A stretch of DNA of 63,582 nucleotides, counting the filler, from Kipferlia bialata (taxonomy: Eukaryota): assembly GCA_003568945.1 (NCBI GenBank). It is 6 parts of 6 records of this genome, joined end to end, with 100 filler letters (N's around TTAATTAATTAA, not from the genome) between each part and the next. Parts side by side here need not be neighbours in the genome. Positions count along the whole stretch, not along the records: positions 1 to 14,496 come from BDIP01000810.1; 5 more parts are not named here. One strand, given 5' to 3'. The notes below the pieces were generated by a model, which was given only the letters and a program-made list of their open reading frames with translations, made no database searches and was not told the origin of the DNA. Made by a program: the position numbers and the translations under genes. Of this stretch, positions 1 to 56,623 are shown one piece after another (position 1 is the first letter of the stretch; every line of letters begins with the position of its first letter).

Positions 1-1403
1 TACATAGAGATGCATAGCCTTTGGCGAGGTCGGCAAGACCAGGAAGAAGAAGGTACATACATGTAGTAATATATATATATGTATATATATATGTATATAT
101 TTTTATATAGATTTATATATAGATAGTATTAATGATAATTATTACCCACTTACTAATACTCCAGGAGGCCAGTGTCCTAGGTGGTTATTCTATATTCCAT
201 TATAATACAGTATTTGTAGAAATACTTATATACATATGTATATATATACTTATACATTTCCTGATGCCAGGAGGCCAGTGCCCTGGGTGCCAATGACCCC
301 CACATCCTGGACTACTACCAGAGGTACTGTATTCCTATATATATATATATATATTAATTCATATACTAATGTATTAATATGTATATATTGAGGGGTACTT
401 GACTATGGGATAGACACGCACATCCTGGACTACTACCAGAGGTACTTATATATGCATATATATATATATATATAATCTCATGAATTGTGTATATAAGTAT
501 ATATATTATTACCCCCACATCCTGGACTACTACCAGAGGTACTGAGATACACATGTATATGATGAGTGTATGTATGTATTTCTAAATTCACTGTGGGCTA
601 GATTCCCACATCTAGGACTACTACCAGAGGTACAGTGATATATATATAATCATATATATATATAATCATATGAATTGTGTAAATAACTATATATATATTA
701 TTACCACCACATCCTGGACTACTACCAGAGGTGCTTTGATGTATACTTATGTCTTTCGTATATATGTATACTAATGTATATACATATATAATATTTGAAT
801 TATGTGTTGTTATAGATGCATATTGAGGGGTACTATTGGATATACCCCCTCATCATGTTCCAGTTTTAGAGCTACCCTTATCACGCCTCTCTCTCTCTAT
901 TTATGATCGCTTTTACTATTGTACATACAGTATGTCTTTCTCTCTGATTTCAGACCCACAGTGTATACAGTCATGTATATATGTGTGTATGAATATATAC
1001 TGTATCTATGTGGATGTATGTCTTACTCCCAGGTCCACCCCCGAGACCGTCTCCTTCACTGTCAAGCTGGCACCTGGGGATCTCGACAGACTCAAGGTGG
1101 GTATATATATATACCTATATATACATATCTATCTATAATACATATATATATATATATATGTATATATCTACGTATGGAGTGATATAGATACCTGGGGATC
1201 TGGACAGACTCACGGTGGGTATATACAAAATGTATGGAGTGATAGACTCAAGGTGTGTATTTATGTTTATGGAGGGATTCTTCTCTTCTTTAGAGATGGT
1301 GACATGAGGGATTTTGAGTAGAATCTGTGGTTATGTCGATATAGTCATGTATATGTTACATGAGATCTGCTTATCCACAGGCTCTGCCATGAGATGTACT
1401 GAT

Positions 1404-1438
<35 letters not shown>

Positions 1439-2050
1439 CCATCAGCTGTACTTATCCCTAGGCCCTGCCAGGTGGTGTCGAGAAGGCCTTCAAGCTGACT
1501 GGATCAGTGCCCATCTCCAACATGTAAGTTGGCACAAGTACATACATAGCACTCTTTTTTATATGTTTAATCTGTGTACATAATTGATTAATTATTGTAC
1601 GTGCCCATCTCCAACATGTTCGTGGACACAAGTACATACCACTCTATGTCATCTCATCATGGTGGATCAATACATATCTGTCGTCGCGTTTCTTCTGTGT
1701 GTTGTGTTGTCTATGATAAATCACTGAAATGTACATATACATATATGTATGCATGCATGTCTTTCAAACCCCAGGTACCTCTTTGACTTTGTTGTATTCT
1801 GTAATTACGTGTATACCTCATTATTATTATTCACCCCCAGGTACCTCTTTGACGAGAGGGGCAGACTGCAGCTAGTATGTATTGCTCCTCCCTATTGTAT
1901 AGTGATGTGATTGTACATTATGTCAATGTATATATTCTATTGCCCCACCCCCAGGTACCTCTTTGACGAGAGGGGCAGACTGCAGCTCTTCCACACACCA
2001 GGGGCCATCATTGACAGATTCTTCAGGTATTTGCATGTATATACATGCAT

Positions 2051-2095
<45 letters not shown>

Positions 2096-2618
2096 AGTAT
2101 ATGCGTGTGTGTGTGAATAAGTATATATATGTATATAACCATGGGCCATCATGACATATTCTTCAGGTGCTATGTGTATATATATGTTGTTTCAATTGTG
2201 TTTTCAAGTTGGATGGGTTATTAATGGACTGTGTTAGGTACAGTGGATGTCTAGTCTTATATGCCTATATACACCCAGTGTCAGGACGCTCTATCTATGA
2301 CATATAAATTTGCATATATATGAGTGTTTGGGTTAGTATCTTATCATGTCTGACCCCCAGGGTCAGGAGGAGAGGCTACGAGGAGAGGAAGAGAGGACAG
2401 CTCATTGGCCTGGTGAGTACTATATAGGGAATGTGACCCTAAACACTCATAAAGAGTGTATATATTTATATTATATGTATCTGAGTGTTTTATCATCCTG
2501 GTGAGTTTGACTGTCCTACTTGGCTATCTACTATGATCCAGGTATTTGTATACATCTCTCCCATCCTGACCCCAGGTGAGGACTGACCCATATTGTACAT
2601 ATGTAGTATATACATGTC

Positions 2619-2653
<35 letters not shown>

Positions 2654-5600
2654 TCTGACCCCAGGTGAGGAAGGCAGCAGAGAGCAGGGCCAAGGAGAGG
2701 TTCATCAGAGAGGTGGGTGTAGAATAATGTATCGGATTAGGAACTAATTTTGTCTTATATAGTATTGTATCCTGACCCCCAGATCATTGACCAGACCCTG
2801 CATGTCATAAGTAAATATATATAAGACACATTGATATATTGTGTATTACTCCTGACCTATAGATCATTGACCAGACCCTGCACGTGATGAGGAGACCCGA
2901 GGCTGACATCACCTCAGACCTCTGGGACAGGGGGTATGCAGTGCACCAGGTACTCTCTCTATCTCTATCGATTTCTCTCTCTCTCTCTCTCTATGTATAT
3001 ATATATGTTACTATATGTATGTATACATATGGATGTGTATCCGACCTGGGGGACAGGGGGTATGCAGTGCACCAGGTACAGTATGTATATATATTTGTAT
3101 GTATGTGTGGATATTAGCCGTCATTAAATGGTATTGCCTTTGAAATTTTGAATCTATATCTATATATATACATGTATATGTATCCCCATTCACCCCTCTG
3201 ACCCCTCAGGACACTGCCTCCGAGCTTCTGGGCACCGAGCACAAGGTATGCTGGGAGTGGTGTATAGACATACATGTAGATACTATATATATAAACCCTT
3301 TGTATTACTGTAAGTTACTATATATATATACTACATTTTTACACATATACATGTATACATGTCCTTACAGCAGGTTGCCTCTGACTCTGTTGGCGATGAG
3401 GAGGCAGATGGCACCAGAGAATACACATATATACATATATACATTCACTCTATATATATGTATATACGTATACCCCTTATGTTGACAGGTTGCCTCTGAC
3501 TCTGTGGGTGATGAGGAGGCTGATGGCACAAGGGTGCACAAGATACTCAAGAGAGTACCTGAGGCAGCTGTGCGGTCACAGGGTTAGTATCAGTATATAT
3601 ACAGATAGTATGCATACAGTGAGTATAGTATATGATATATATTTGTATTGTATATATATATATATGTAGGAGTGTGTACTCAAGAGAGCACCTGAGGCAG
3701 CAGTCAGATCCCAGGGTGAGTTGTATATGTATATATATATATGCTAGCTTATCTATTGTCTTATGCAGCTACGAGTACCTCCTCAAGATATATAGTTAAA
3801 TATACATAAGAGCATTTCATGTATGTATATATACATGTGTAGTCCCACCCCCAGGCGACGAGTACCTGCGCAAGATATATATATATATATATATATATAG
3901 TAATATATAACTGTATACCTCTTCTAACTAACCCATGCTACGAGTACCTGCTCAAGATATATAGTAGAATATATATAGTAACTACCTATGGGAGTGGTTT
4001 AAGCATTGTGTCGCATATATATATATATGCATGTGTATGTATTATTGTTCCCACCCCCAGGCTACGAGTACCTGCTCAAGATGCCTGATGAATATGCATA
4101 GTTTAGATTATTTACTAGTATATAATGCAACTATATTCCTCTTACTAACTAGCATATGGTACTAATATATATACCTCTTACTAACCCAGGCTACGAGTAC
4201 CTGCTCAAGATGCCTGTCCGGTCATTCACAACTGAGAAGGCAGAGAAGCTGGCGGAGGAGGTCAGGTACTCTATCACGTGCATATATAGTATATGTCACG
4301 CAAGACTATTCAACAGCACTTGTGTACTCTTTTACGTATATATTATGTCTCTCTATACTCACCTCTAACCTCCCTATGCAGGTCGAGGCTAAATGACAGT
4401 ATTTCTAGTATTCATGTGTACTCTCTATTTACTTCTTACGTCTCTATATACTCTATCTGTATATCACCTCTACCCCCCTATCCTAGTTTCTAACCCCCCT
4501 AGGCAGGTCGAGGCTGAGCTGGAGTGGCTCAAGAAGAGGACCACGGAGGAGGTATGGGTTATGTATCAATATGTCCATGATATATATATATATATATATA
4601 TATGTATGTGATATATATATATATATATATTGGAGTGGCTCAAGAAGAGGACCACGGAGGAGGTACTATTTACATAGAAATACGTTTCTATACATATATG
4701 CCTTGATGCGGCAAGTATATCAATTGTATTTATGAATATATGTACCCTATATTAATGTACCCTCACTCTAGATGTGGCTGTGGGACCTTGCCAAGCTGGA
4801 GCTGGGTCTGGAGGCCATAGACCACGACACCTACAAGGAGGTCAAGATCAAGGTGTGTGAAGGGCAATATGATATTACTAATATCACAGTAGCCTTTATT
4901 TAATCGATATAGTATTTGTATCAATATGTTTGAATGCCATTCTCTATCCAACCAACTAGGACGAGGTCCTTGAGCCACATTTCTATATTCTGAACTGAAA
5001 TATATATGCCTATATATGTGTACACTTCTCTGTCCTTACCCCAGGACGAGGCCGTTGAGCTCAGGGAGCAGACTGTCCGTGCAGAGCTGATGAGGTATAT
5101 ATATATATACATATATTTACTCCATACATATGGATGTAGTGTTAATGCGTGGATTCGCGCATAGTAGTATTTGTTCCGTATATCGAGATTCATTGTCTCT
5201 AAGCCCTCAGGGAGAGAGAGAGAGGCCCTGATGAGGCAGCAGCCATCAGAGAGAGAGAGAGGGTCATTGGACAGACACCAGAGAACATCGGGAAGGTTTG
5301 TTTAGTAGCAGTCGACATATCAATTGTATTTTCATACACCCTTTATGTTGCCACTCTCCTTTAACGTCAGGTAGGTCTCTGTATACATTAGGGTTCTCTC
5401 TCTCCTCATATACTCCTCACCTTACGTCAGGTTTGTCGATTGTCTATCCAATTAGGCAAACTGTATTGGAGCCTCCTCTCTTTGTATGTTGTTTTCTCTC
5501 TCAATTAACGTCAGGGCGGTCTCTTCACCGTCCCAGATGCCATCACACCCACTGTCAAGAGAGAAGTGAAGGTGGAGGTCAAGAAGGAGCCTGCCAAGAA

Positions 5601-6396
5601 GGCTACCAAGAAGGGAGCCAAGGTAAATATATATATATATATAATATATACATATATATATATATGTAATATCCATTATGACACACCCAATGTTAAGAGG
5701 GAGGTGAAGAAGGCAGCCAAGAAGGGAGCCAAGGTGGGTATATTACACTCAATATTATACTTTCTATTCATTGTTGAATATATACATATACAAGGATACG
5801 GCGGCCAAGAAGGGAGCTAAGGTATCATCCAAGAGAATATGTATTCACTGATGTAACTAAACATATTTTCAAATCTGAAATATTCACAAGAGATCTCTGA
5901 TATACTTAGTATGACTCCTCAATGTATACTTGCACCCAGGCACCCCCCTCCAAGAGAGTTCCCTCTCCTTCCCCATCCCCTGAGGCATCACCCTCTGAAG
6001 GCACGGAATATATATACATATAGATGTATTCATAGGAATAGAGGGGAGGAGAGATGTATGTGTACAAATGTACGGAAAGAGAGGAAGAGGGGACCTTCTA
6101 GTAGCCAATGTGTGTTGTACAACTGAACTCAGTCCAGTCTCTGTTGGATCTTTGATATACGTGTAATTTATATATTTACAGAGCCCCCCTCATTCCAGCC
6201 GTTGACTCTGTGTGGGCCGACATCCTGACCCCTGTCAAGCAGCCCAGAGCAAAGCCTAGGGGGAAGGTATGTACATAGTATATAGTATATAGTATATAGT
6301 ATATAGTATATAGTATATATATAATAGTGTGTTTATAGTATAGTATGTATTATATAGAATATAGCAAAGCCTAGGGGGAAAGTATATATGTATACA

Positions 6397-6434
<38 letters not shown>

Positions 6435-9400
6435 TAGTGTCTCACCCTCAGACGACCATCCCAGTAAAGAAGGCACCTGCCAAGAAGGCTCCTGCCCCCA
6501 AGAAGGTATTATATATATATGTATGTATAAATATGTGTATGCTGAGAAGATATAGTAGATTTTTCAGTACTAATAATGTTTATACATACATAGCTCCTGC
6601 GCCCAAGAAGGTATGTTATGCCTATTAACTCATTGATACATATGCTGATGCCAGGGCCTGCAAATACCCGCATATATATGTGTGTATATGAACATACTCA
6701 TATACATACCCCCCCCTACCCCAGGCCCCTGCCAATACCTATGTAATGTATATAATATATACATGTATATATGTATATGTATACTGTCTCATCCTAGGCC
6801 CCTGCCAAGAGGAAGCCTGTCCAGCCAGAGCCTGAGCCAGAGAGTGAGGAGGAGGTACTCATATACAGTATATATTATTGTACTAGTATATATTCATGTA
6901 GAGTATTGTGAAGTAAAACTCTTAGAGAGTGAGGAGGAGGTACTCCCATATATGCATTTGTCTACAGATACTATATATAATATATAATATATATATACTT
7001 TATTACACTTCAGTCTAACCCCAGTCCATGAGGTACTCCCATATGCAGTGTACTATATATACTACATATAATATATACTATATACTATATATACTATATA
7101 CTATACTACACTTCTCTCTCACCCCAGTCCATGAGTGACTCATTCGTTATACATATATATGTGATGTGAATGGTATATTTTATACATATTCATTTAGTGT
7201 CTAATACATATACTATACATATACATGTAAGTGTCTCACCCCAGTCCATGAGTGACTACGGCAGTGCCCAGGAGGACACACCCATCCAGGTATCTATATA
7301 TATATATATGCATGTATATATATATATATGCATGTATGGATATGTGTGTGTGTGAATGTGTGTTCATGTATACAGTGCCCAGGAGGACACGCCCATCCAG
7401 GTATGTATATATTTATATATATATCTTATACCTTATACCTTGTATATATAATACATTATATACCCTCACCCCCAGCCCCGCAAGAGACCCATCAGGGAGA
7501 GAGGGGAGGAGGAGAGTGAGAGTGAGGCCGAGTCCGACTCTGACGAGGACGGATACGTGCCACAGCCCAGACAGCCCAGGCCCTCGAGGTAAGTAACCTG
7601 TATACTATATATCATATTGTATCCACTAAGGTTATATATTCATGTATATATACATGTATATATATATATTGGTGCCCCAGCCCAGACAGCCCAGGCCATC
7701 GAGGTACACTCTTATTGCTATTGATAGAATGTGTATTCTATGTAACCTATTGTACACGTCATGTTAATTTCTGGTACCCAACCCCATGCAGGCCCTTCTT
7801 AGACCCTCGAGGTACACTATTTATAGGACTTACAGCATATGTATACTTGTATTCAATATCCTCTTACCCACCTCAGGAGAGGTGCCCGTGTCTCCTACAT
7901 ATATACTACCATAATGTATATATACATTATAAATATCTTATACTGTATATATATATATATATATATATATCGTCTTGCCCTAGTATATTAGCTAACACCA
8001 GGAGAGGTGCCCGTGTCCCCTACATTATATAGTATAGTACTCCATAGGCATTTACTATGTGGAGTATATTGTATATGTGTATACTATATATGATAGGATA
8101 TTAATACCAGGAGAGGTGCCCGTGTCTCCTACAAGCCTGTGCAGGATGACAGTGAGACAGAGGACAGTGTGAGTGAGAGTGAGAGTGAGGTTGAGAGCGA
8201 GAGCGAGGTATGGACAGTAATATATCCATATATATGTGTTTTCTCTCTCACCCTAGGAGAGTGGGGGCTAGGTTTGTGATAAACTTGTATGAGAAATTAG
8301 TATATACAGAGTGTTTTCTGATAGACATGCAATGTACCTGTATGTATATCCATGCTCTCTCTCACTCCAGGAGAGTGGTGGCTATGAGCCCACCCCAGAG
8401 GTCAAGAAGAAGGTGGTGAAGAGGGCCAAGCCTGCTCCTAAGGTAGGGTCTTTCATACTACTATTGACGACATCACAATTAGCTTTGCTACTCATTATTT
8501 CTACTTATCTCAGGCCAAGGCCGCTCCCAAGCCTGCTCCCAAGGCCGCTGCCAAGGTGTGTGGTCCCGGAATATGCTACTACCTATATATACTCTGACGC
8601 TCTGCATTCTCTTCTATATATACTAAGCACACCCTCTTCATTCCCTAACCCAGCCTACATATACACACTATACATACTCTTCCTTCTAACCCCCAGCCTA
8701 CCAAGGCCAAGGTGACCAGGCGTGCCCCTCCCCCTCCCCCCGAGGACTCAGAGTCCGAGGAGACACTGGACCTGGTGGTGCGTTTCTAGTATGTACTTAT
8801 TGATAAATGATATTCACTATCCATATCTATATATATGTATATAGTTACTTTGTCCCAGTACGAGTCCGAGGAGACACTGGATCTGGTGGTGCGTTATATA
8901 TATGGATATATATAGTGTTTTCCGAATAGGATCTACACATTTGCAGATGTATTTACCGTATGTTTCACTCTAGATTACTTGCTATCTCTGGTATTGTCCT
9001 TATCACCACTCACCCCCTGGGAGTCTGAAGATGATGTAATTGATAGTTAAGCATGTACATTATATCGTGGCTCATCTCTGTCTTGTTTAGTACTTTTAAC
9101 CCCTAGGAGTCTAGAAGAGATAGCAAAGTATTGTTATATATACTATATCTATGTCTTAATGATACTTACCCCTAGGAGTCCGATGATGAGGATGCATTCG
9201 TATCCCCTGTGGTGCAGAAGAAGGTAGGGATAGGGTGTTTTGAAGTATGAATAGTGTTCCATACAGTATATGTCACAATGACCCATATACCAACATACTC
9301 ATATAACAACAAGAACCCTCTGTTTCCAATCACCCTCATCCTAGGCCCCTGCCAAGAGGTCTCTGGTGAGGAGGAAGGCACCTGTCAAGGTAAGGATATA

Positions 9401-10662
9401 CTATTGATGATGCATGGTATATCCATATAAGCGACTAGGTTATGATGGATTATGAGGAGGAAGGCCCCTGTCATTATATATATCTCTGTCTCGCTCTCTC
9501 TCTCGCTCTATTTACCTATGTATATGTATACAGCTATATTAACCACAGGCCAAGGCCCCAGTGAAGGCCAAGGTATCATACTTCTCTCTCTCCCTCTCTG
9601 CCTATGTATCTTTATAGCTATATATATACTCAACCATACATACTAACCCCACAGGCCAAGGCCCCAGTCAAGGCCAAGCCAGCCCCACAGGTATTATATA
9701 CCTATATACTTGTATGTAACCTACTGTATTGGTGCAGTAGACTGATACTGATACTCTGTAGTTCCCTCACCCCTAGTCGTGCTAAGTATATTTATATGGA
9801 TAGTATGTTCTAATATATGATATATATATATATATATCATATGTATAGTTCCCTCATCCCTAGGCACGCAAGTATATATTATATATATCTATATATATAA
9901 ATATACCTATTCTCACCCCCCAGGCCAAGGGTGCCGCCAAGGCAAGAGCAGCCCCCAAGCCCAAGGTATATATACATACCCCAAGCTATACACCCCTTTT
10001 CAATAATGATACCGTGACATATGTATGTTGATATATGTAGTGTTCCCAAGCCCAAGCCCAAGGTATACATCATGCATATGTACAATATCATGTGTGTATA
10101 GATGTTCTTTCTATTGAGTATACAGCTGTGAATTCATATTTATGGAGTGTAACATGTACATAGTGGTATATATATCATTCTCACACCCAGGATGATGAGT
10201 ACACTGACTCTGACTCGGATGTCGACATGGGCAATGAGCTCCCAAGCGCCAAGGTATACGTTATTGATTAGTGGTTATATATGTGAAAATTCAAATATGT
10301 GTGTATGTGTGCGTGTATACATATGGTATAGAGTTGTGTGTATGTATGTATGTATTCGTTGTTGTCTAACCCCAAGCTCACCATCCGCAACAGACCCTCC
10401 AGAGGCAGGAGGGTGCCCGTGAGGTATGGGTGTGTATGTATTCATAGATGTAGTGATGTATATATGTATATCTATGATTGTATATATTGATATGTGCACT
10501 GACAGTACAGTCTGCCGATGAATACACGGTTATGTCTTCATATATCCAATGAATATGTATATATATGCGTCTAATTCCAGATACACTGTGTCAGACAGCG
10601 AGAGTGAGAGTGAGAGTGAGAGTGGGTACGGAGGGGACGACAGCTTTGAGTACTCTGGATAG
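1..10662 (+). CDS. TOP2: DNA topoisomerase II, 3' part (end of the cleavage core plus a long K/A/P-rich and acidic C-terminal tail), many short exons, 5'-partial
   Basis: Spliced exons read ...[12 protein letters not shown]..., [109 protein letters not shown]. These match the eukaryotic TOP2 motifs N-M-x-L-F-D, R-x-x-x-Y-x-x-R-K, Y-D/E-Y-L-L-x-M and W-x-x-D-L. The last exon 10581-10662 ends in TAG. Confidence 0.9.
298..732 (+). repeat. Exon-end echo array: live exon end plus four intronic copies of CACATCCTGGACTACTACCAGAG|GT, each with a donor GT
   Basis: Unit seen at about 301-325 (live), 419-444, 517-540, 608-631 and 708-732, separated by TA-rich spacers. Confidence 0.9.
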
Positions 10663-11009
10663 AGAGACAGAGAGACAGTAGAGAGGCAGAGAGAGAGAGG
10701 CAGAGAGAGACATATAGAGAGACATTCAACCCCCCCCCCCCCTCCTGTCTCTGCTGCACACACCACCCATAGGCACTCTAGTCTATACCGCAGAGGTCTT
10801 GGGACATCAATAGATTGGTGATCATTATTGTATTCAAATAGACACTGCTTTACAATACCAAATGCTACTAGGTTCTAGTATGTCTTGTAATACACATCCT
10901 ATTCACTGACAATGACATTTACTTGAGTCATCTAACGAATGATAGTAACGTGTTCCAAATGACACTCTCCTATATACTAGGAGAGTCATCAGTTGTCTGA
11001 GTGAGTCTC

Positions 11010-14000: not shown

Positions 14001-14011
14001 TACATATATAT

Positions 14012-14044
<33 letters not shown>

Positions 14045-14439
14045 CATATATGTATGTACCTCCATATCCAGGAGTGGGTACTCCTCTGAGTCCACAGACA
14101 CAGTCTCACTATCGGCAGCACTCCTAGGGGGTGAGAGACACGAATATATCAGAGCATGAGAGAGAGAGAGAGAGAGAGAGAGTAGAATCAGCAGCACTCC
14201 TAGGGGGTGAGAGACACGTATATATACAATATAAATAATATAAATAATACATATAATATATATATCAGAGCATATCAGAGAGAGAGAGAGAGAGAGTAGT
14301 ATCAGCATGTACATACACATATATTACCAAGACATAAACCACCAAGGGAAACAGACGGTGACTGCACGGAAAGAGAGACAGGGTAGACAAAGAGAGAGAG
14401 AGTGCGTGTGTATACCTGCACCGGTCTGCGTCGATGTCC

Positions 14440-14440
<1 letters not shown>
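11010..14440 (-). CDS. Metallo-beta-lactamase-fold hydrolase (prokaryote-like GHAxHH / FTGD / PxQFDP type), 5'-partial
   Basis: Minus-strand exons give [50 protein letters not shown] and end ...[13 protein letters not shown] (TGA at 11012-11010). The HxHxDH motif would lie beyond the contig end. Confidence 0.75.
12050..12107. repeat. Intronic 10-bp tandem repeat (GATAAGATAC)n, about 5-6 units
   Basis: Read directly from the sequence. Confidence 0.85.
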
Positions 14441-14496
<56 letters not shown>

Positions 14497-14797: not shown

Positions 14798-16736
14798 CCA
14801 CTGACCTGCTTGTGTTCATTGTGGACCTTGTGTGCATAGTTGTGGGCCTTGTCCAGATAAGGATACTCAACAGAGCGCGGAAGTACACACCCCTGCCCCT
14901 CTACATGACGATGTGAGGCTTCTAGATATTGTGTGTCTGATTGAGTGCACCCGACATCTCTATTCCCACACTGAGTACCGATATGCCGTGTGACCTCACT
15001 CCAGTGCCACATTCCTCGCCCTCTGCACCACCATCCTAGTCCTGTGTATCACTGTGCCTAATGCCAACTGTGCCTTTCCCTTTGGAGAGACGGTGGCTGC
15101 CGTGTACCTGCTGGTGTTCCTGGTAGAGGTATACAGACATATATACATATATATAGAATGAGTATGAATATATGTGTAGTATAACTCTCTATATTACTAT
15201 ATATATATTTGCCCCCACCCCCTCAACTCAGGCCTCCCACGGGTGTGTCTCCACCACCCTGCGTGTCTGCATCAACTGCACTGTGGTGATATCTGGACTG
15301 CTGGCGGGTGTCCTCCTACTCCTCAACGAGAGGGTCAGGGAGACCTGGGCCTGTCACGTCGACTACTACGCCACACCCTCTGCGGTGGGTATGGTCATAC
15401 TCTGCATAGTCATGTGGCGCTATAGCATCAGGGACGAGGCAGCCATGGCAGTCCAGGCACACCACATGGCGAGGTATGTATACGGGTATATACAGATATA
15501 TTGAAATAGTAGAATGTATATTGTAGTAGGTATTTGTTTACAACAGTGTATTTATCACACCCTCACCCTCAGAGCTATGCAGGCCGCCCTGGGCATGTTC
15601 TACTCATCCCTACCTAGGAGGACCAGACGATACGTCACAGACGCCATCCCGTCGGCCAAAGGTACTCGCTCTATGTAGTGTCTCTCTCTCTCTCCCCCCC
15701 CCCCTCTCTCTCTGCATATGTATACACCTAACCCTAAGGCACCTCCGAGCCTGTGCTTGAGACCATGACCCCCCTCGAGGCAGTGGGTGCCACCTTCAGT
15801 AGGGTGGGGGAGGCGGAGGGAGAGGGGGGGTACCACGCACACACACCTGGTAGCACAGGGGAGAGAGAGAGACTGGTCCATCTGAGGGAGGCCAGCCACC
15901 CCCATCCCCTGAGTGCCAATCTGAGCATCAGTAACCTCAGTATCAGCAGGCTGCACAGCATCAGTAACAGCTACAGCCACGAGATGGCACTCAGACAGAG
16001 CCCAGGTGTGTGTGTCTTTTTCCACATATATATATGCGTTCGTGTCCTCATTTCCATATATACTAATACCAATTCATATTACTACCCCCCTCCCCAACCC
16101 CCTAGGCATGATCACGACTGAGGACGAGTGTGTGATAGCCTTTGTGGGTGTGGTACAGTCAGCACACAGGGTGCCAGCGGTGGCATACATAAAGGTATAT
16201 ATACATGTATGAAAGTGCCCTATTGTTTACTCTATTGTGTAGTGTCTGACTTCAGGACCTTGTCACACTCATGAGGGCACTCGATAGAGTGATATGTGTC
16301 ACACCCGGGGTGGAGAAGGTACAAATTCACCATACTGTGTTTCAAACTGACTGTGTGAAGAGTCTCTCTCTATATTTGTATGTGTGTACAGTATACCCTA
16401 ACACCAGGTCAAGGGCATTGAGGGCGCTCTCATTGTGCGTATAGGTGCTGGTACCAAGGTACCTGAGAGGACGGGAGAGGGAGAGGGAGAGGGAGAGGCA
16501 TGGTCAGGGGACGAGGATCATGGAAGTGGGGAGGACCTCGATAGAAGAATGCTGAGATTCCACTGCAGGTACGTATATATGACTCCCCCGCCCCTCTCTC
16601 TCTCCATGCCTCTCTCCACCTCTCCCTTGCACTTCAGTATACTTCTCTACACGCATGCATCTTGACCCCCTTTTAACCCTGGGAGACAGTCAGCTTCAGC
16701 ACCCTACTATGCATCTCTCTCTCTCTCTCTCTCTCA

Positions 16737-16773
<37 letters not shown>

Positions 16774-17961
16774 GACCAACTCACCCTAGACAGATGATCA
16801 GGTTCAGCACCCTGTGTATCATGGCCGTGCATGTCCTCAAGGGGATGGGACACCCACTGGAGACCATAGAGGGGGTCAGGACAGGTATACTATGTGTGTA
16901 TGAGTTCAATAGTGTCTCTTTCAGAGTTGTTACAAACCTTACCCCTCCAGGCATTGCCTGTGGGAGTGTCACTGCTGGTGTCCTGGGCACATGTGAACTG
17001 ATGTTCGATGTGTTTGGAGACACAGTCAACACGGCAGCCAGGTATGTGTATACCTCGTCCCCTCCAATCACTCTCTCTCCACATTCTATCTCTCTCCCCT
17101 TCTCTAAACCCACACTGATGCATAAGGCCCTTTCTATCTCTCTCTCTCCCCCTTACTTACTGAAGTATATCCCTCTCTAACCCCAGGCTCATGCACAAGG
17201 CCTCCCCCTCCGAGACCCTTGTGACAGAGGAGGTGGCATCCCTGGGGTGCAACATCACGGACTACAGGGGGTGCCCATACCCCAGGCACAAGCAGATAGA
17301 GTATGTGCAGTCGGAGCCCATAGTCATGCACATCAAGGTAGGGTGAAACAGGATAGATTATATGATATATATACTCATCTCTTAAGTGGTTGCATCAATT
17401 GCTCTACTTTGGTAGTCTTCCTATATTATGGATACCCCCCTGTCTGACTGTAGGGCAAGGGTCTGTGTCCTGTCAGAAAGATATGCCACAGTCCACGACT
17501 CATACACCACAGGTAATGATATTATTACATACTATTATTACATATCTATCTATCTATATATATATACATATATGCACACACATATATATACATGATATTT
17601 ATAACAGTCATACACCACAGGTGGAACACATCCAGAAGTCTCCCTATATCACTCACTCTCCAGTGCCCGACACTGTTTGTTGCACATCGCTTGTGTGATA
17701 TATATATATATATAAATACTATGTATATCCTATATATATGTATAACCTCACCCCAGTGCCAGGCACTGCCAGGTGCATATTACCATACCACAGTATGTAT
17801 ACTATATATATATATACTATGATTATACACAGATTACTCCCTTTGTATGTACCTACCCTCACCCCAGTGCCAGACACTGCCAGGTGCACATGGAGGATGC
17901 CTTCAGAGACCTCAAGACACACACCTGCTGGACAGACTGGGTATGGACAGACACTCCCATT

Positions 17962-17997
<36 letters not shown>

Positions 17998-18522
17998 TGC
18001 ATAACAAGACACACACCTGCTGGACAGACTGGGTGAGGGCACACACACTCTATATACATATATACATATATACATATATATACATATTACAGTGTACCAG
18101 ACACACCCCTGCTGGACAGACTGGGTGAGGGCACACTCTCTCTTTATATATGCATATATATATTATATAACAGACACACAGGTGCTGGACAGACTGGGTA
18201 CGGACAGACACTCTTATTCTCTCTCTCTCTCTCTATATATATATTATATAACAGACACACACNNNNNNNNNNNNNNNNNNTCTCTCTCTATATATATATT
18301 ATATAACAGACACACACGTGCTGGACAGACTGGGTGAGGGCACTCTCTCTCTTTATATATATACATATGTATTCATCTCCTTTCAGTCAGATCATGACCG
18401 CGGACTCCTTCCATAGCAACAGTCTCTCTCTCTCTCTCTATCTCTCTATCTCTCTGTATAGGAGATTGATCTCCCTCTTCTAACTGTTAGATCATGACTG
18501 CCGACTCCTTCCATGGCACTAG

Positions 18523-18560
<38 letters not shown>

Positions 18561-18601
18561 TGTTAATGCAAATCCCTCTTCTAACTGTTAGATCATGACT
18601 G

Positions 18602-18637
<36 letters not shown>

Positions 18638-21600
18638 ATATATATATATATATAGACGCGTCTGACTCTCAGATCATGACGGCGGACTCCTTCCATGGCA
18701 CCATCAGGGGGTACGGGAGGTGGAACGACGCTGCTGACAGGAGAGAGAGAGAGGGAGACGACATGGGGGATAGGGAGGGAGAGAGGGACGCAGAGGAGAG
18801 GTCTGTCCACTCACATGTCACAGGGGACCAAGGGTCAGATGTTGCAGAAGTAGAGACACCACCCACAGTCGATAGAATGTCGTCTTCCATCCTGCCTGTG
18901 CCATGGGACGTTATCAATGCAAGGTGGGAATACTCAGTGTATGAGTATAGTAGTGTCCCCCCTTCACACTCCCTCACCACCAGCTTCGAGAGTCCCCCCC
19001 ACCCCAGCAACCTCGACCCCATCCCTGTTACGAGTAGATGCAACTCATCGTGTAGCTCCAGCTCACCAACTACACCCTCAAAGGACACCCGACCCCACAG
19101 AGAGGCCTATATAGACCTCTACACCCCACCCCTACTACCTATGCACCTGGGGAGGGGGGATGCATCAGAGACGTCTGATACAGCCAGTAGTGACATGGAC
19201 GTCCCACACCTTATGGTGAACAGGGCACACTCCTTGTCACACTCCTTGTCACAGAGGGGCAGTGTGGGTATGCAGCATGTCACACGTGGTAGGGGGGTAC
19301 CTGAGTTGACACAGTCACTCCTCCCTAGGACCAGATCCACCATACTGCAGAGAATGCACTCGCTGAGGTGTGGCCCCGATATGGATACTTACAATAGTAC
19401 TTATAGGTGTGTAAGTGTCTGTGATATATATGTTGTCTCACTCCCCAGTGCCCTTCAGCCAGCCATGCCTGAGTCTGTGCCTGCTAGGCCTAAGAGACTG
19501 GCATTCAACTTCTCTCTGCCTGTACCCGCCCTCTTGAGGTCATTCAGCAGGTACAGGGTGACTACGTCATTAGCATCTATACTATACTATCTATACTATA
19601 CTGTCTATGCTATCTGTATAATACTATACAGAGAATATACGTATACTAATCTCCAGTCCTGGCATAGAGGGTGTCTCCCCCCTTGCCATCAACCGACTGG
19701 ACAGCATGATAGACAGTGTGGGGAGGGACCCCAGCCACACGCAGATCAGCACAGACGTGTACAGGTGTGCACACATAGAGTGTGAGAGTACTATCATCTA
19801 TTGGGAAATGTTATGTGCATTTATGGATCTGACCCCCCAGGGAGTGTGACGACACTGCGTCTGAGCCCACTCTGACACCACCAAGGTGAGGCTATACATG
19901 CATATAGGCAGTATAGTAGTTGAACTCGTGAGTGCGTTTGTTGTCTATGTACAGTGTCTTTGTCACAGTATGTCCTAACCCCCCAGGTCTGAGTGTTCAG
20001 AGGATGGGGACCAGTGCCTCACACCCATTGGGCAGAGGACGGCTGGACTGAGGTATCGATGCTGCTTGAATGCTCTCTCTCTCAATCGCGTAGATATGTC
20101 TCCCTAACTATGAAGGATGCAGAGTGCCCCTACCCTTGTCTCTCTGAGGGGCAGTCCCTTTGCAGACACAGCACCACTCTCTCCAGAAGACAGGGATGCC
20201 CTGCTCGCAGCTGTACCAGGTACCGCGTTATCTCTCTCTCTCTCTGTCTCTGTTGACTCAAGGTATCTATCTTGTCTTAGGTATCTCGCCCTCCCTACCC
20301 GTCTCTGCCTCACCCTCTTACCCCTAGACACCCTCGACAACCACACCCGGTCCACCATCCATCTAGACATGGCATGCATGGACAGGGGAGGGTGTGACAC
20401 TGACTCAGAGGGGTACTCGTCCGAGGGGTACAGCGACCATGGTAGGAGGTAGGGATCCCTCATTGAGATACATGTAGCCATACCTATATATCACTACACT
20501 GACACCCAGGTGCAACAACGAGAGTGTCCCGATGGGCCATGCAGACAGTGAGAGTGGGTGGGAGGAGTCGACATCAGTGGTGGTCAGTAGGAGGGTGAGG
20601 GAGAGGGAGAGGGAGAGAGAGACCAAGGGAGACACAGTGACCTTTGACTGCATACCGGAAGATGTCAGTGCTCCTATTGTGCATGAGGAGTACCCCAGTG
20701 GTATGGCAATGTACCCAGAGGAAGGGGGGAAGGGTGACACACCGGGTACCTCTGCCCAGAGCGTACCTAAACAGATACCCTGCCAGGCACCTCCACCCAG
20801 CACTGTGGCAGCCAGTCCATACGCACAGGACAGGTGGGGTGTGGAATGTATAGTATATACTATATGTAGATTTCTCATACTGACCCTAACCCTCCAGACA
20901 GCCCTCCGCCCCGACCCACCCCTCCAAGATACAGGACATGGAGAGCATACTGCTAGAGCACCTGGAGGCAATGTACGTCAGCGTGGCTGTGGACACACCC
21001 CTGCACAGGTGGGTATGAATATATGTATTTACATACACACATGTGTGTGCGTGTGGTGTTCACTTGTAACCCCAGGCTTGTGTCCCTGACCAGAAGGCAT
21101 GCCTATGGGACACCCATCAAGACTATCAAGGGTAGGAGAGGGAGAGAGAGAGAGGCTCTCTCCAACAGAGAGGTGCTGGGGGATGTGTGCCAGGCAATAC
21201 CCCAGATTATCAAGGTGGGAATATTGGAGTATATAATTATATGTATTCATCCCTCTCAGTGGATGTGTTCATAACAATGCCTGAGGTAGTCTAGTGGTGG
21301 GGAGGGGGTATTTGGTACTGTGTAGGGTGTATTGACTGATCTTGGACACCACAATTTCCTTGTCCCTGCCAGTAGATGTACGTATTGCGTGCCCTTTGAA
21401 CCCCCTTACCCCATCTAGTACTGGAAAAGTGGGTATTGGTTACAGTGTATTCTATAGTGAGTGATCCTGTAATGTTAACTATCTCTCTATGAGTGCTGGT
21501 TCATCGCTTACCACAGCTAGTACTGGACAAGGCCTCCCGTCGCAACCTCTTTGGCATATTCCACAGCGTCAAAAAGCTCAAGGTATGGATGTAGTGTCTA

Positions 21601-24600
21601 TATATATACATAAATGTCTATATATATAACTGTATGTCACCCCCTCACCCCAGACCCACATGTGGACTGTGCTGTTCATTGTATAATGGATATACATGTG
21701 CATGTGTATATATGCGTATATATGATGTATATAACTATGAATGCCATAGCATCCACCCCCAGACCCACATGTGGACTGTCCTCTTCATGTCCATCTTCCA
21801 GATATGCGTCATCATCCCGACCCTGGACCCCGACTACCAACGGGAGCTGGTACGGTACATCTCTCCCTCTCTCTCTCTCTCTCTCTCTATTATCACCACA
21901 TACTTCTCACCCTCCAGTATGAGTTAGCCAATGGCAACACCCGCCTCCTCTCCCTCCTAGACGTGTACCTGGTGGCTAAGTGGGCTTACTTTTTTGTCAT
22001 GGCGGTATGTATCTCTCTCTCCCTCTCTCTCTCTTCATCTCTTAGTGTATCAGTATATCTCAGTCTTTCTCGTCTTCTTATTGGTTCATTTGTATATCGT
22101 GTCCTCACCAAAGCTGAGGCTGGTCGTGTACACATACGCACTTGCCAAGTGCCGTCAGTTCGCATTTAGGGTCATGAAAAAGGTAGGCAGTAACATAAGA
22201 ACGCCTACAATTATGGTGTCTAACACATTTCAATGAGAAGTGACCGAACATTCAACTATGGTGAAATACTTGGGAACTCTTCTATTCGTTTTGCCTCCAC
22301 CGAAGAGTGTATGTATGTGGTTTTGCACTTTGCAGTATAGGTATATTGAATCATATATATACAGCAATAGGTATATATGCTCACGATCTGTGTGCCTGAC
22401 CCCAGGTGATGGGCTTCATGTACAGGGATGCAAGTGAGGCAGAGGGTGATACAGATACCGAGTCCAACGGGATGAAGGGCCAAGTGATCAAGGTCGGTGC
22501 TCGGTCCCATTTCATATTATAGAATACTCTCTCTTGTCTTATACATCCTATGGTGTGGATGCCTCCCCCCCCCAACCCCAGTCTGTCCCCCTCTTCACCT
22601 TCGTCATAGTCAACATGAGAGTCATCCTGCAGATGTGCGTGGGTGTAGCCGACCTGACCTGTGTACTGTGTCTGCTACTGATGAGGATGGAAGTCAGCAA
22701 TAGCAACGTCATCACACCCTACCTCAACAACCTGACTTGGGTACGGGCATCGCGTAGGAATAGGGTTGTCGTGTAGGATCTTTCTGTGGATGGCACTGTC
22801 TGTATCCTGTATATTCATCTGCTTCCTCGCCAAGTATTCGGCCTTCAGTTTGGAACCCCACTCTCCTTCTCTATCTCTCTAAGTCTATACCTTTTAGTGA
22901 TGACGGCAAAGCCCCGTATATGTACATTCCATACACTCATCCCAGATCTTCAGGAACCTTGGGACCAACGAGGCCTTTCTCTCCATGTTTGGAGTGAGTG
23001 CCGTGGACTCAGTCCCAACCCTACTCCTGCAGCTCATGGTTGGGATACCCCTGTCGTACGTGTAGTCTATATGTACATTAGACAAAGCCACATCCTTTCT
23101 TCACACATCATCCTCCTCCCCTTCACCTTCAGATGCTTTGTGGTCACTGTGTTCAAGCAGAGTTCCTTCCTGCACCTTACACACACTTCGGTGTGTCTGT
23201 ATGCACTGCTCCAGTCCGTCATGCAGGTATTGTACCTCTACTCAAGTCTCTCAAGATGTTGTCTTCATGATACCTATCACTCTCTCACTCCTGCTCCAGT
23301 CAGTCATGCAGGCATAATCTCTCTCTTCTTCCACTTGGTATACTCTATGGTGTAATAGTGCCTCCATGACATGTGTACACTGTTATCATCCACTCTCTAC
23401 ACGTATCACATATACATACCAACCCCAGGTTGTCTACATGTATGCGGGTGTCTTCTCCCTGATATCTATATCTCACTCTCCCATACTCTCTCTTATCCAG
23501 GTTGTCTACATGTATGCGGGTGTCTTCTCTCTGATATATATAGAGTATATATATCTATATCTCTCTCTCCTATACTCTCTCTCTCTTATCCAGGTCGTGT
23601 ACATGTATGCGGGTGTCTTCTTCATGTCTGAGGCAGTGGCCGCCAAGGTGCTAGTGTCTAGGGTGGCGTCGGGGAGGTTCTTCAACAGGTGATGGATGTG
23701 CCTCATATATATTTAGCCAATGTATGTGTATACAAGTACAGTATACACTCACACCCAGACTCCTGACCCCTGTCGCTGCCCAGACCAGTGGTCTCTTTGC
23801 AGCTGGGGGCGTGTCCCCACACCAGGCAGCATCGCTGGTCAGGTAGGACACATACTCTCTTGTCACCTCTTTGTCTCACTATACTCACATATATATACAT
23901 ACATACACCCTTGGGGAGAAGCATAGCCACATATCTCTCCATATCCTATGTCTTATCTGTGTATACAAGTATAGATGTATATACGAGTGTATATTGTATA
24001 TGTATAATGCATCTACCTCACTCCCAGGACCCTTGAGGAGAAGCACATGTATATATGTATATATGTATATACGTATAACTGGTGTATGTGTGTATACTGT
24101 ATATATACTAACTACCAGGACCCTTGAGGAGAAGCACATGTATATACGTATATATGGTATGTGTATACTGTATCTATACTTACTGTCAGGACCCTTGAGG
24201 AGAAGCACATGGCCACACAACTAGAGGACTCCATGCTGTCATCACTCTTCTATGACCAGGTATACTACATACATAGATGTATTCTATAAATATACTTTCA
24301 TGTGCTGAGATATTTATTGCATTTGCAGTGTATATCAGTGTTTATGTATATATATGTGTATACAGTACCCCTCACCCTCCAGATCAAGATCAAGGCTGCC
24401 CCTGTCCAGTCTTTGCAGTATCTACAATGTCAGTATTCATATATATATCCATGAGTTACTGTATAATCACACCTTACACTGTAGATCAAGATCAAGGCGG
24501 CCCCTGTCCTGTCTAGCGTCAGACACAGACACACCCCAGAGACACAGCACACAGAGAGGTACGAATATACTAATATCATATGCTATATATATATTAACAC

Positions 24601-27207
24601 CATATGTACTCTTGATGAGACACAGCAGACTGAGAGGTGTGTAGTGACTGTAGTATTATTCTTGACTATAGTATAGGTTTAGTTCTTATGTATATACCTC
24701 CCCCTCATCTGACCCCCAGCTTCATGAACAGCATGTACTCCAGAGGTAGACAGAGGGAGGCCTCTGCCATGTGCCAGCCTAGTGACACATGTACACCTGC
24801 GACACCTTCTACACTAGAGGATACTAGTGCACAAGGGGTTGATGATGCGGCGATTGTGGTGCACACGAGACAGCTCACCTCCCTGCTGAGGTCATGGTAC
24901 CCGACTCTCTTCCCAGCCCCCACCCCCGAGCCAGGCATTGCCCCCGTTCACTCCATGCAGCGCCTTCCCTCCATAGCGGGGCTGTCCCTACTCGATCGGC
25001 GTGTATCGTGTAGGGTGGAGGACCTTGTCACCACTTCCTACACCTCTGACGCAGACACTGAGCCACGCAGGGTGGACCCCCCCTCCCCTCCCCCTGCCCA
25101 CATACCCCCAGGGGTGGATGTCAGTGTGCCAGTCAACTACGCGTCGGAGGTGTGTGTAATAATGTGCAGTGTACTATTGGTATTCGTGGATCAAAGACCT
25201 GATTGATTGACCATACTCTCTGTACACTGACCCCAGGAAGAGATCAGTGACATGAGGCAGGCAGAGATTGAGTTCTTCCCCCTGATGGTCTACACAAAGC
25301 TCGACATATGTGGCTTTACCAAGTAAGTACACACTATATATACTTATAGTATGTATGTATACATATATTATCTATACTGACACTGATGCTGATTGAGTTC
25401 TTCCCCCTGATGGAGTATTGCAAGCTGGACATATGTGGGTTCACAAAGTGAGTGTTGTAGAGTATTTAGTAGAGTACATATGTATATCTATCTATATATA
25501 TATATATATTCCAAGCTCGACATCTGTGGGTTCACAAAGTGAGTGAGGGTTTGATTGCAGTGGTACTCATTGCCGAGTAGAGACGATACCACCGGTCACG
25601 TACTGATGTCTGTGTCTGTGACTCTCTCTCTACATGTATACCAACCCCCAGGTACTGCACCGACCATGGGTCAGAGGTTGTCCCCTTGCTCAACCTCCTC
25701 TTCACAGCACTGGATGAGGTACTGGCATAGTATCACTATTAGATGGTTCTATTTCATTTACTGAGGTACTGGTTATCAGTATCAGTATCCATTATTATAT
25801 AATATCTCTACTATCGGATACTCATACTATTGCTTTATCTATTTAGTGATACTATTACTCTCTCTATGTACACTGATGCTATTACTGTATCTGTTACTGA
25901 TCCTTATACCTAGGTGCTGGCCAAGTACTCTGCCAGTGGCATCATCAAGGTCAAGACAATAGGGGACGCATACGAGGTATGTATGCAAACACATATGTAA
26001 AACTGTGTAAAACGTTCATCATGGGACATGCTCTTCTTCAACCCACCGCTGTGTATTGTGTCCTGTGACTCTCTGTCACAGAGAGTCTCTGTGTCGACCT
26101 ATACATGTATATGTTTGTTGATATATATTGATACACACACCCTCACCCCAGGCCATGCTTCCCTTCAGCCCCACCCACCTCAAGTGTGCATCGGTCTCAT
26201 CCATCATAGAGGGCGTGGCTGCAATGGCTAAGGTGTGTGTATGCATGCATGATATACAGTGCGTATACATACACCTCTCCCTCTCCCTCCCCCTCAGGCT
26301 GCCAGTGAGTTCCAGAGCGTCGCACTCCGTATATTCTCCAGCCTACAGGTCGACCTATCTGTCAGGTACGAGACCAGTATTACATACATGTATGTAGATT
26401 ATGTGACCATAAGCACCCCATATGCTATACACTATGTACTCTCTGTGCTTTTACCCCAGGTGTGGAGTGGGAATGGGCCCTGCCTTTGCAGCAGTACTCG
26501 GGAGGTGAGTCTTATACGGACCAGCGTGTAATTGATCCTCTCTGAACTACACCATTGTATGTCCGATTGCAGCATCCATATTACGTAACATACATTCGGA
26601 TAAGTGGCCAACCGTGTCTCCTATGACATCGGTATGTCTTTAGTGATAGTAATAACGTCATACGTCACATATGTCTAACCCCCAGGATCCGTGTCTCCTA
26701 TGACGTTGTGGGAAGAGCCCCCTCTACAGCCAGGACCATGGAGGGACTCTCTCCTCTAGGGTACGGGCTACTATAGATACACTAGTGGTACTTACCCACT
26801 CATTTCAACCCCCCTGACCCCAAAGATGTGTCACTGTCTCCCTGCCTGTCTATGAACTGCTGTGCACTGACCCCACCCTCCACTTTGGCAGCTATGTCAC
26901 GCCCATGACCAATACCCAGAACATAGAGGACAGGGCTAGCAGTGCCCTACTTGATACTGCATCTGAGATGGTGAGGGAGAGAGTGGCTGCACAGAGGCAA
27001 GGAGACTCTGACTTTGAAGCGACTCTACTGCTGAACCATGCAGTGCTGAGGTCTGTGAGTGGGTCAAATGGGGGCACACCACCCACAGTGACAGAGTGGT
27101 TCGAGAGAGACCACCTCACGGCCCTTCCCTTACTGCACATGCACGAGAGAGAGGGTAGTATGGACAAGGGGACAGTGGGGGTGGTCCTGGAGGGAGTGTC
27201 TCTGTAG
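14798..27207 (+). CDS. Membrane-bound class III nucleotide cyclase (probable adenylyl cyclase), TM-C1-linker-TM-C2 architecture, 5'-partial
   Basis: Hydrophobic exons at 14798-15470. C1 exons: GVEK|VKGIEG and GIACGSVTAGVLGTCELMFDVFGDTVNTAAR|LM (16951-17041). Second hydrophobic block at about 21760-23690. C2 exons: KLDICGFTK (25237-25322), IKVKTIGDAYE, VR|CGVGMGPAFAAVLG and YDVVG. TAG at 27205-27207. That this is a single gene is inferred from an unbroken + strand exon chain. Confidence 0.8.
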
Positions 27208-56500: not shown

Positions 56501-56623
56501 AGAACAGACAACAAAACCTTAACATAGAAAAACGAGTAAGGTCATACAGCACCAAATATGAAGGAAAAACGTACTGGGAATCCTCCTTCCAGCGGCGTTC
56601 ACGAAAAACTGGTCGTCGGACAT
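53558..56623 (-). CDS. citF-citD-citE: Fused bacterial-type citrate lyase: alpha (CitF, CoA-transferase) + gamma/ACP-like (CitD) + beta (CitE, citryl-CoA lyase); 927 aa, 3 exons
   Basis: Exons 56623-56575, 56441-56021 and 55871-53558 total 2784 nt in frame, with GT-AG introns. CitF motifs: NAAGRRIP, ISWHHHLRNGD, RSHGGRVRAI, FSFQAGAGG, GALEVDVNFNIN, GGSQDTAAGA, WRDGTVIDVV. CitD-like: KSDVEITL...DAGASDWVIAARVEAAV. CitE: RRSLMYIPG, DLEDAV, VRIN, PKIES, GLEDY, IHPSQI, GRKMIDAPV. Confidence 0.93.

What the first reader, a model, noticed from the sequence alone, without database searches (positions are those of the whole stretch)
164..4260. Polarised exon echoes: introns are filled with partial copies of the adjacent exon ends, splice sites included
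Seen: most exons in the microsatellite-rich genes are flanked by 10-50 nt truncated copies of themselves, with consistent polarity. Copies of [acceptor AG + exon start] lie upstream (e.g. 164-181; 1775 and 1841 before exon 1955; 3768, 3855, 3937, 4061 before exon 4190). Copies of [exon end + donor GT] lie downstream (four copies in 419-732). The same pattern occurs on all six contigs and both strands (MBL gene, cyclase, FNTB, PP2A 48532-48850, 51340-51553, IAH1). Inference: a genome-wide process duplicates junction-spanning segments and expands introns. The spliceosome must then pick the first of several donors and the last of several acceptors, or use them for recursive or alternative splicing. 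I do not recall this architecture being described.
Basis: partly seen in the sequence, partly recalled or inferred. Interest (0 to 1): 0.85.

Follow-up and report, generated by a model that had tools for sequence, protein, structure and literature searches.

The report
Exon-end copies stacked inside protist introns
In the free-living protist Kipferlia bialata, four in ten introns examined hold short copies of the neighbouring exon's end with an intact splice signal that the main mRNA skips, and because the copies differ from the exon mostly at silent codon positions they were likely pasted in from other alleles of the same gene during DNA repair.

Summary
Real. The window is Kipferlia bialata. 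In eight hand-annotated genes, 58 of 144 introns hold 115 exon-end copies (10-54 nt, 94% identical), always exon-end+GT downstream or AG+exon-start upstream. None lie in non-adjacent introns. The units (~105 nt) make up 42% of intron DNA. Contigs from a public DNA run reproduce the arrays, and a spliced contig skips 16 of 16 copies crossed. Polarity follows from duplication geometry; recursive splicing is unsupported. New here: copies differ from their exon at 22.6% of four-fold sites but 3.9% of zero-fold sites (5.8x; neutral decay gives about 2x). Their intron flanks are mostly unrelated, and intron-only duplications are nearly absent. The copies therefore likely come from diverged alleles, by exon-anchored repair between homologs (inferred; no second allele seen). 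The architecture is not undescribed: chicken 'exon stuttering' (PMC12954441) is the same layout, in 3.4% of dot-chromosome introns, and this scan noted one sea-urchin gene. Verdict: new variant of a known kind, interest 0.72.

The parts
161..183 (+). acceptor copy (AG + start of exon 271-323)
   Evidence: repeats 267-289
271..323 (+). source exon, topoisomerase II-like gene (label recalled; weak PDB hit E 0.3 for another exon)
   Evidence: open frame over 33 exons
419..732 (+). four donor copies of exon 271-323 (419-441, 511-538, 605-629, 703-730), each followed by GT
   Evidence: joints after 604 and 702 bridged by a DNA contig
1190..1216 (+). donor copy of exon 1033-1096
1601..1619 (+). donor copy of exon 1462-1523
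   Evidence: bridged
1773..1873 (+). two acceptor copies of exon 1955-2026 (1775-1787, 1841-1873)
2152..2168 (+). donor copy of exon 1955-2026
2781..2802 (+). acceptor copy of exon 2863-2949
   Evidence: bridged
3043..3077 (+). donor copy of exon 2863-2949
   Evidence: bridged
3372..3414 (+). acceptor copy of exon 3489-3582; 3 differences in 41 nt, all silent
3677..3717 (+). donor copy of exon 3489-3582; 5 silent, 1 replacement difference
3768..4087 (+). four acceptor copies of exon 4190-4265 (3768, 3855, 3937, 4061); the intron 3583-4189 is removed whole in the spliced contig
271..10660 (+). whole TOP2-like gene part: 35 copies in 21 of 32 introns
14798..27207 (+). adenylate/guanylate cyclase-domain gene (KIPB_003978): 22 copies in 10 of 44 introns
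29727..37830 (+). prenyltransferase beta-type gene (FNTB-like): 36 copies in 15 of 17 introns
38565..40269 (+). further junction copies in a gene I did not annotate (38565, 38856, 39172, 39684, 40156)
47707..48970 (-). acceptor copies in the PP2A A-subunit gene (47814; 48615 and 48783 plus two shorter ones)
51333..51554 (+). three donor copies of exon 51136-51255

Best explanation
The introns hold head-to-tail units of exon end plus about 75 nt of intron-type DNA, and these units are likely scars of recombinational repair between homologous chromosomes whose exons still align but whose introns would be too diverged to align. Inferred steps: a break in an exon; one end invades the other allele through the exon, copies across the splice junction into that allele's intron, and is joined to the other broken end instead of annealing back. 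This leaves one whole exon plus a partial copy carrying another allele's silent variants and a different intron flank. Later mispairing through the copied exon piece adds or swaps units. Shown: layout, polarity, unit size, silent-site bias, mostly unrelated flanks, skipping in the main mRNA. Selection is inferred to keep only units that lack the second splice site and whose AT-rich spacer is about as long as a minimal intron; the spliceosome would then choose by whole-exon context, not by site strength.
For: Four-fold sites vary at 72 of 319 (22.6%), zero-fold at 50 of 1287 (3.9%): 5.8x, p = 4e-9 against the 2x ceiling for a neutral copy beside a constrained exon; pN/pS 0.19 (bootstrap over 75 arrays 0.13-0.28); same direction in all six genes that show differences; no GC-to-AT skew. 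A simulated neutral copy run through the same detector gives 1.8-2.0x. Variants private to one copy: 27 silent, 29 replacement, on 143 silent and 507 replacement sites. The flank beside a copy resembles the flank beside the real exon in only 22 of 111 comparisons at p <= 0.05, including many copies with no difference over 20-33 nt. Of 178 direct repeats in the window, 160 touch an annotated exon or copy, 12 lie in unannotated parts (10 look like junction copies by eye), and 6 are intron-only (3 one minisatellite, 3 parts of re-duplicated units), although intron-only targets are as many (15,606 vs 12,960 start positions). Spacer length (min 43, 5 of 112 under 50) overlaps that of short introns (min 55) and does not vary with copy length (rho -0.07). 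Context: metamonads lack NHEJ and Fornicata lost Rad51A and have two Dmc1 paralogs (PMC8516963, passages); Dmc1 stabilises mismatched heteroduplex (PMC6719624, abstract); the genome's k-mer profile suggests diploidy (PMC5874029).
Against: No second allele was seen: laying the DNA run on 1-6200 at 95% likeness listed no other letters (contigs drop variants and the list was cut), and no close relative came from the metagenome scan (best 43% identity). Copy-versus-copy silent excess is weaker: 3.1x, p = 0.07 against 2x. No microhomology signal at breakpoints (p = 0.41). The flank test has low power in low-complexity DNA, and 22 of 111 flanks are related, so same-chromatid re-duplication also occurs. 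Spacers are somewhat shorter than short introns (KS p = 0.03). The silent excess cannot tell 'born from another allele' from 'born identical, exon later converted'.
Confidence: 0.55

Rival explanations
1. Copies are born as ordinary same-chromatid tandem duplications (slippage or repair fill-in); microsatellite turnover then erases the intron part, and gene conversion from other alleles later refreshes the real exon and swaps flanks.
For: 22 of 111 flanks are related and some arrays alternate with period two; introns are full of microsatellites; later conversion would also give a silent excess.
Against: Needs intron-only duplications in similar number; almost none found. Zero-fold divergence of 3-4% implies young copies whose flanks should still align. 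Without inter-allelic exchange the ratio stays near 2.
Confidence: 0.25
2. The copies are functional: used in recursive or alternative splicing, or as regulated decoys, and kept under coding constraint.
For: GT kept in 54 of 58, AG in 48 of 57; copy sites score as high as real ones (copy >= real in 22 of 54 donors, 29 of 48 acceptors); silent-site bias; one 24-nt copy at 9549-9572 has both sites and keeps frame.
Against: No enrichment of AG|GT ratchet geometry (6 of 37 vs 26 of 107; 31 of 38 vs 87 of 106); 0 of 58 and 2 of 57 copies have a partner site; 84 of 97 copy-using transcripts tested would shift frame or meet a stop. The spliced contig skips 16 of 16. GT retention fits neutral decay at 4% per site.
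Confidence: 0.08
3. New AT-rich filler about one intron long is inserted at staggered breaks, the exon piece being a long target-site duplication (Daphnia-type neo-intron route, recalled).
For: Spacers are intron-sized, mostly unrelated to neighbours, and match no other intron in the window (0 hits in 10,296 pairs).
Against: The duplication would have to end within a few bases of the junction nearly every time (median extension 5 nt); it gives identical copies, so no silent bias; spacers carry only one splice site.
Confidence: 0.07
4. Assembly artefact: diverged haplotypes stitched in tandem by a short-read assembler.
For: Silent bias and unrelated flanks are what alleles look like; the published assembly of this species is short-read SPAdes of a probably diploid genome; three N gaps lie inside arrays; the DNA run may be the data behind the window.
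Against: The joint between spacer and mid-exon exists in neither normal allele. The eight listed contig pieces of the DNA run bridge 11 of 22 such joints in 1-6200 with at least 31 letters each side, no other letters, depth 331-378; the other 11 fall outside the listed pieces. Arrays hold up to five distinct copies, more than two haplotypes give.
Confidence: 0.04

Closest known systems
Exon stuttering on chicken dot chromosomes (Hron et al. 2026, PMC12954441; abstract, passages and second half of Discussion read)
   Same: A lateral part of an exon with its donor or acceptor is copied into the adjacent intron; over 90% of sources touch the exon border; median 36 bp; strictly local; coding region intact; non-crossover gene conversion named as one speculative mechanism.
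   Different: There 190 of 5,572 dot-chromosome introns (3.4%), GC-rich, units tandemly related and mostly seen by Tandem Repeats Finder, intron-only stutter common. Here 58 of 144 introns, AT-rich, flanks mostly unrelated, no TRF row with period over 24 in 1-14496, intron-only duplication nearly absent, and a silent-site bias (the word 'synonymous' does not occur in that paper's main text).
Human F7 IVS7 37-bp minisatellite spanning the exon 7-intron 7 border (PMC1557585, abstract)
   Same: Functional downstream donor copies stay silent; the most upstream donor is used.
   Different: One locus, identical units, donor side only; its 5'-to-3' scanning model cannot explain choice of the last acceptor here.
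Repair-mediated duplications with SDSA hallmarks in vertebrates (PMC2671141, abstract); one-sided invasion (title seen in the reference list of PMC4888836)
   Same: Short, closely linked duplications made at break repair, some holding exon parts and splice sites.
   Different: About 1,000 events in the human genome from nearby DNA of the same chromosome; not junction-anchored at this density, no allele signature reported in what I read.
[quoted passage not shown]
   Same: Same geometry (403 bp, donor duplicated).
   Different: It wrecks splicing and causes disease; Kipferlia tolerates about 0.8 such copies per intron.
Recursive splicing, stwintrons (PMC7138796, abstract) and intron gain by tandem duplication (PMC3265369, search listing)
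   Same: Duplicated splice signals inside or beside an intron.
   Different: No regenerated donor or acceptor; the copies make no new intron or exon, with one candidate exception at 9549-9572.

Membership tests
Exon stuttering (PMC12954441) | lateral exon part with its splice site copied into the adjacent intron | tested here: met
   115 copies; GT 54 of 58, AG 48 of 57
Exon stuttering (PMC12954441) | strictly local, proximal intron only, coding region intact | tested here: met
   0 hits two or three introns away; 0 internal stops in eight models
Exon stuttering (PMC12954441) | copies form imperfect tandem clusters whose units are related along their length, mostly seen by TRF | tested here: not met
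   flanks related in 22 of 111; no TRF period over 24 in 1-14496, which holds 49 copies
Exon stuttering (PMC12954441) | intron-only stuttering accompanies and outnumbers exon stuttering | tested here: not met
   6 of 178 repeats intron-only; microsatellites are abundant but were masked
Exon stuttering (PMC12954441) | extensive intron length variation within the species | not testable with these tools
   one sample only; no relative found
Recursive splicing (ratchet points) | acceptor directly followed by a regenerated donor (AG|GT) | tested here: not met
   6 of 37 vs 26 of 107, p = 0.37
Recursive splicing (ratchet points) | intermediates or lariats at the internal site | not testable with these tools
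   only contigs were available
Repair-mediated (SDSA-type) duplication | short, closely linked direct duplication | tested here: met
   unit median 109 (donor) and 100 nt (acceptor)
Repair-mediated (SDSA-type) duplication | breakpoint microhomology or filler | tested here: inconclusive
   indirect test gave p = 0.41; the donor sequence is unknown
Introner / mobile intron family | introns in unrelated genes share one sequence | tested here: not met
   0 hits of score 18 or more in 10,296 intron pairs
Intron gain by tandem duplication of an AG|GT exon segment | the stretch between the copies is spliced as a new intron | tested here: not met
   copies lie inside introns removed whole

The most novel reading that the evidence does not exclude
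K. bialata, lacking Rad51 and NHEJ, repairs breaks by Dmc1-driven invasion of a diverged homolog through its exons so often that some 40% of its intron DNA is a mosaic of other alleles' intron ends. The genome would hold on the order of 100,000 full-strength decoy splice sites (0.8 per intron x 124,912 introns, extrapolated from this window) that record lost allelic diversity, and a reduced spliceosome ignores them by a rule based on an AT-rich spacer of minimal-intron length. The same silent-site signature would then be expected in avian exon stuttering.
Probability: 0.35. Interest if true: 0.88.

Novelty: new variant of a known kind. Interest (0 to 1): 0.72.

Why it matters
It moves exon stuttering from a few percent of introns on bird dot chromosomes to a main builder of intron DNA in a distant protist, and gives a simple sequence test (codon-position bias of the copies) for the mechanism, which the bird paper leaves open. 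It also offers a large natural library of competing splice sites of equal strength, on both donor and acceptor sides, in an organism with 87 of 174 surveyed spliceosomal proteins and no snRNA candidates found (PMC6679479, passages): how the last of several complete acceptors is chosen becomes directly testable. The human FGG case shows the same event can cause disease.

Tried and rejected
No whole genome is held, so no genome-wide count. No RNA holder was listed as such; run X2 is RNA by guess, though its 5,175-nt record joins exons exactly at splice sites. Only 1-6200 was laid with reads, so other genes lack read evidence. Metagenome scan with the citrate lyase protein: 17 loci, at most 43% identity, no Kipferlia relative. 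Whole-exon duplication with later half-loss rejected: it would give both polarities. Spliced-mRNA template rejected by inspection: donor copies run into GT, not into the next exon. Base-composition artefact rejected: zero-fold rates are 3-6% for all four bases and four-fold rates 17-28%. Model corrections: a 26-nt candidate exon at 21260-21285 was dropped because it broke frame (the deposited protein also lacks it); a false 31-nt S28 intron was removed; my last cyclase acceptor differs from the deposited one by 22 residues. The script stopped early, so its list of short copies in long introns covers three introns only. Paper searches listed nothing on such copies in Kipferlia; the genome paper's main text has no 'duplicat'; its supplements were not read.
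Full report
Source. The window is six eukaryotic scaffolds joined by spacers. A long exon at 53561-55900(-) matches a Kipferlia bialata citrate lyase at 100%, and exon 24721-25149 matches KIPB_003978 on a 14,490-nt contig, the length of scaffold 2. The species' genome paper (PMC5874029; parts 1-2 of 6 and passages read) reports a 51-Mb short-read assembly, two k-mer peaks read as diploidy and 124,912 GU-AG introns; 'duplicat' does not occur in its main text.

Gene models. I annotated eight genes by hand: 152 exons, 144 introns, no internal stop. The cyclase model equals the deposited protein at 1,894 of 1,894 residues; the deposit adds 22 residues by an earlier last acceptor. For the first gene, a 5,175-nt contig of run X2 lies on eight exon pieces at one constant offset to my spliced model, so across 13 introns it holds no extra base and skips all 16 copies in 10 of them. 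Contigs show the main form only.

The observation. It holds at every quoted coordinate. Exon starts are copied only into the upstream intron, exon ends only into the downstream one, never two or three introns away. The anchored search gave 118 hits; after dropping 3 off-register ones, 58 donor and 57 acceptor copies remain in 58 of 144 introns, 10-54 nt long (median 26), 94% identical. In the 17 introns with both kinds, donor copies always precede acceptor copies. Each copy adds about 106 nt (r = 0.91) and units make 12,157 of 29,188 intron bases. Contigs of DNA run X1 match the window with no other letters and bridge 11 of the 22 spacer-to-copy joints in 1-6200; the rest fall outside the eight listed pieces. 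X1 may be the data behind the window, so this excludes stitching by an assembler but is not a second sample.

Polarity needs no special cause. A head-to-tail duplication across a donor leaves the first copy joined to its exon and the second in the intron; across an acceptor, the reverse. Duplications holding both sites would make new exons and are nearly absent: 0 of 58 donor copies have a usable acceptor, 2 of 57 acceptor copies a usable donor, plus one 24-nt candidate at 9549-9572 that I had modelled as an exon (23 of 24 identical to exon 9655).

What plain duplication does not explain. First, the copies, though intronic, carry a codon rhythm: 25, 32 and 106 unique differences at positions 1, 2, 3 (before the 3 hits were dropped); 72 of 319 four-fold sites vary against 50 of 1,287 zero-fold sites. 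A neutral copy beside an exon that takes only silent changes cannot exceed 2x, and simulation through the same detector gives 1.8-2.0x. So for most of their separate history both sequences were coding, which points to alleles (or homeologs). The per-copy figures fit: replacement divergence about 3%, silent 18%, leaving roughly 12% as allelic difference (my arithmetic). Copy-versus-copy comparison points the same way but weakly (3.1x, p = 0.07). Second, identity stops a median 5 nt past the junction, and only 22 of 111 flanks are detectably related to the flank of the real exon; the test is weak in low-complexity DNA. Third, intron-only duplications are nearly missing though their targets are as many.

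Mechanism. Best reading (0.55): break in an exon, invasion of the homolog through the only alignable sequence, synthesis across the junction, and joining without re-annealing; later mispairing through the copied piece re-duplicates and swaps units, giving the alternating flank types seen in some arrays. Fornicates lack NHEJ and Rad51A and keep two Dmc1 genes (PMC8516963, passages), and Dmc1 stabilises mismatched joints (PMC6719624, abstract). All of these steps are inferred. Against: no second allele seen, no microhomology signal. The main rival (0.25) is same-chromatid birth with later allelic conversion; both need exchange between diverged alleles.

Splicing. Copy sites are as strong as real ones by position-weight score (donors median 8.7 vs 9.0; acceptors 12.5 vs 9.7), so strength does not decide. 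Ratchet geometry is not enriched, and 84 of 97 copy-using transcripts tested would shift frame or stop. First-donor choice has a precedent (F7 IVS7, PMC1557585, abstract); last-acceptor choice runs against 5'-to-3' scanning. Spacers are rarely under 50 nt (5 of 112), near the shortest introns (55 nt). I infer whole-exon recognition with AT-rich stretches of intron length read as intron, as recalled for plants; untested. Copies are scarce in the genes with highest GC3 (S28 0.79, PP2A-A 0.77), perhaps through expression; eight genes are too few to say.

Comparison. The layout is that of chicken exon stuttering (PMC12954441; abstract, passages, half the Discussion), which the authors call novel and did not find in other vertebrates bar gerbils. 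This case works like it but fails two tested features (related tandem units; intron-only stutter) and is about twelve times denser; length variation among individuals could not be tested. An earlier scan note (e1-7787398) reports junction copies in one sea-urchin gene; I did not test it. Ten paper searches listed nothing on this in Kipferlia, and the two stuttering terms are held by bird papers only; subscription journals and supplements were not seen.

Verdict. Observation confirmed; interpretation partly supported; new variant of a known kind; interest 0.72.

Noticed in passing
window 53561-56623 (-): Citrate lyase subunit fusion, nearly intron-free. The same 927-residue protein has two NCBI accessions on two contigs, the longer 14,412 nt against 9,034 nt here; one residue differs from the window. 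Possibly a separately assembled allele or recent duplicate. Similar fusions occur in Barthelona and Pelomyxa.
   Followed up: partly
window 9549-9572 (+): 24-nt in-frame segment, 23 of 24 identical to the start of exon 9655, with its own AG and GT: a copy that may have become an exon in the Lys/Ala/Pro-rich tail. No RNA evidence.
   Followed up: partly
window 38762-38971 (+): Odd junction: the open frame seems to run to 38770 with no GT, and a copy at about 38851-38875 repeats bases on both sides of the apparent splice point; true donor unclear.
   Followed up: no
window 51136-51255 and 51580-51640 (+): A kelch-like exon (weak Pfam hit) reads in frame into the TsaD/Kae1 gene across a long poly-C tract: fusion or mis-join.
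   Followed up: no
window 6001-6002 (+): Apparent GC donor after exon 5940-6000, needed to keep frame; not shown by reads.
   Followed up: no
all annotated introns: Compact acceptor consensus, roughly CT(T/C/A/G)AC-CCCC-CAG, with the likely branch A about 8 nt from the AG, so each acceptor copy carries a whole 3' signal.
   Followed up: partly
window 18263-18280, 30305-30438, 34031-34060: All three internal N gaps lie inside copy arrays; the arrays may be a cause of this assembly's fragmentation.
   Followed up: partly
window 28241-28298 (-): 27-nt in-frame exonic tandem duplication in an unannotated gene.
   Followed up: no
window 12050-12106: 10-nt minisatellite, the only true intron-only repeat found.
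   Followed up: no
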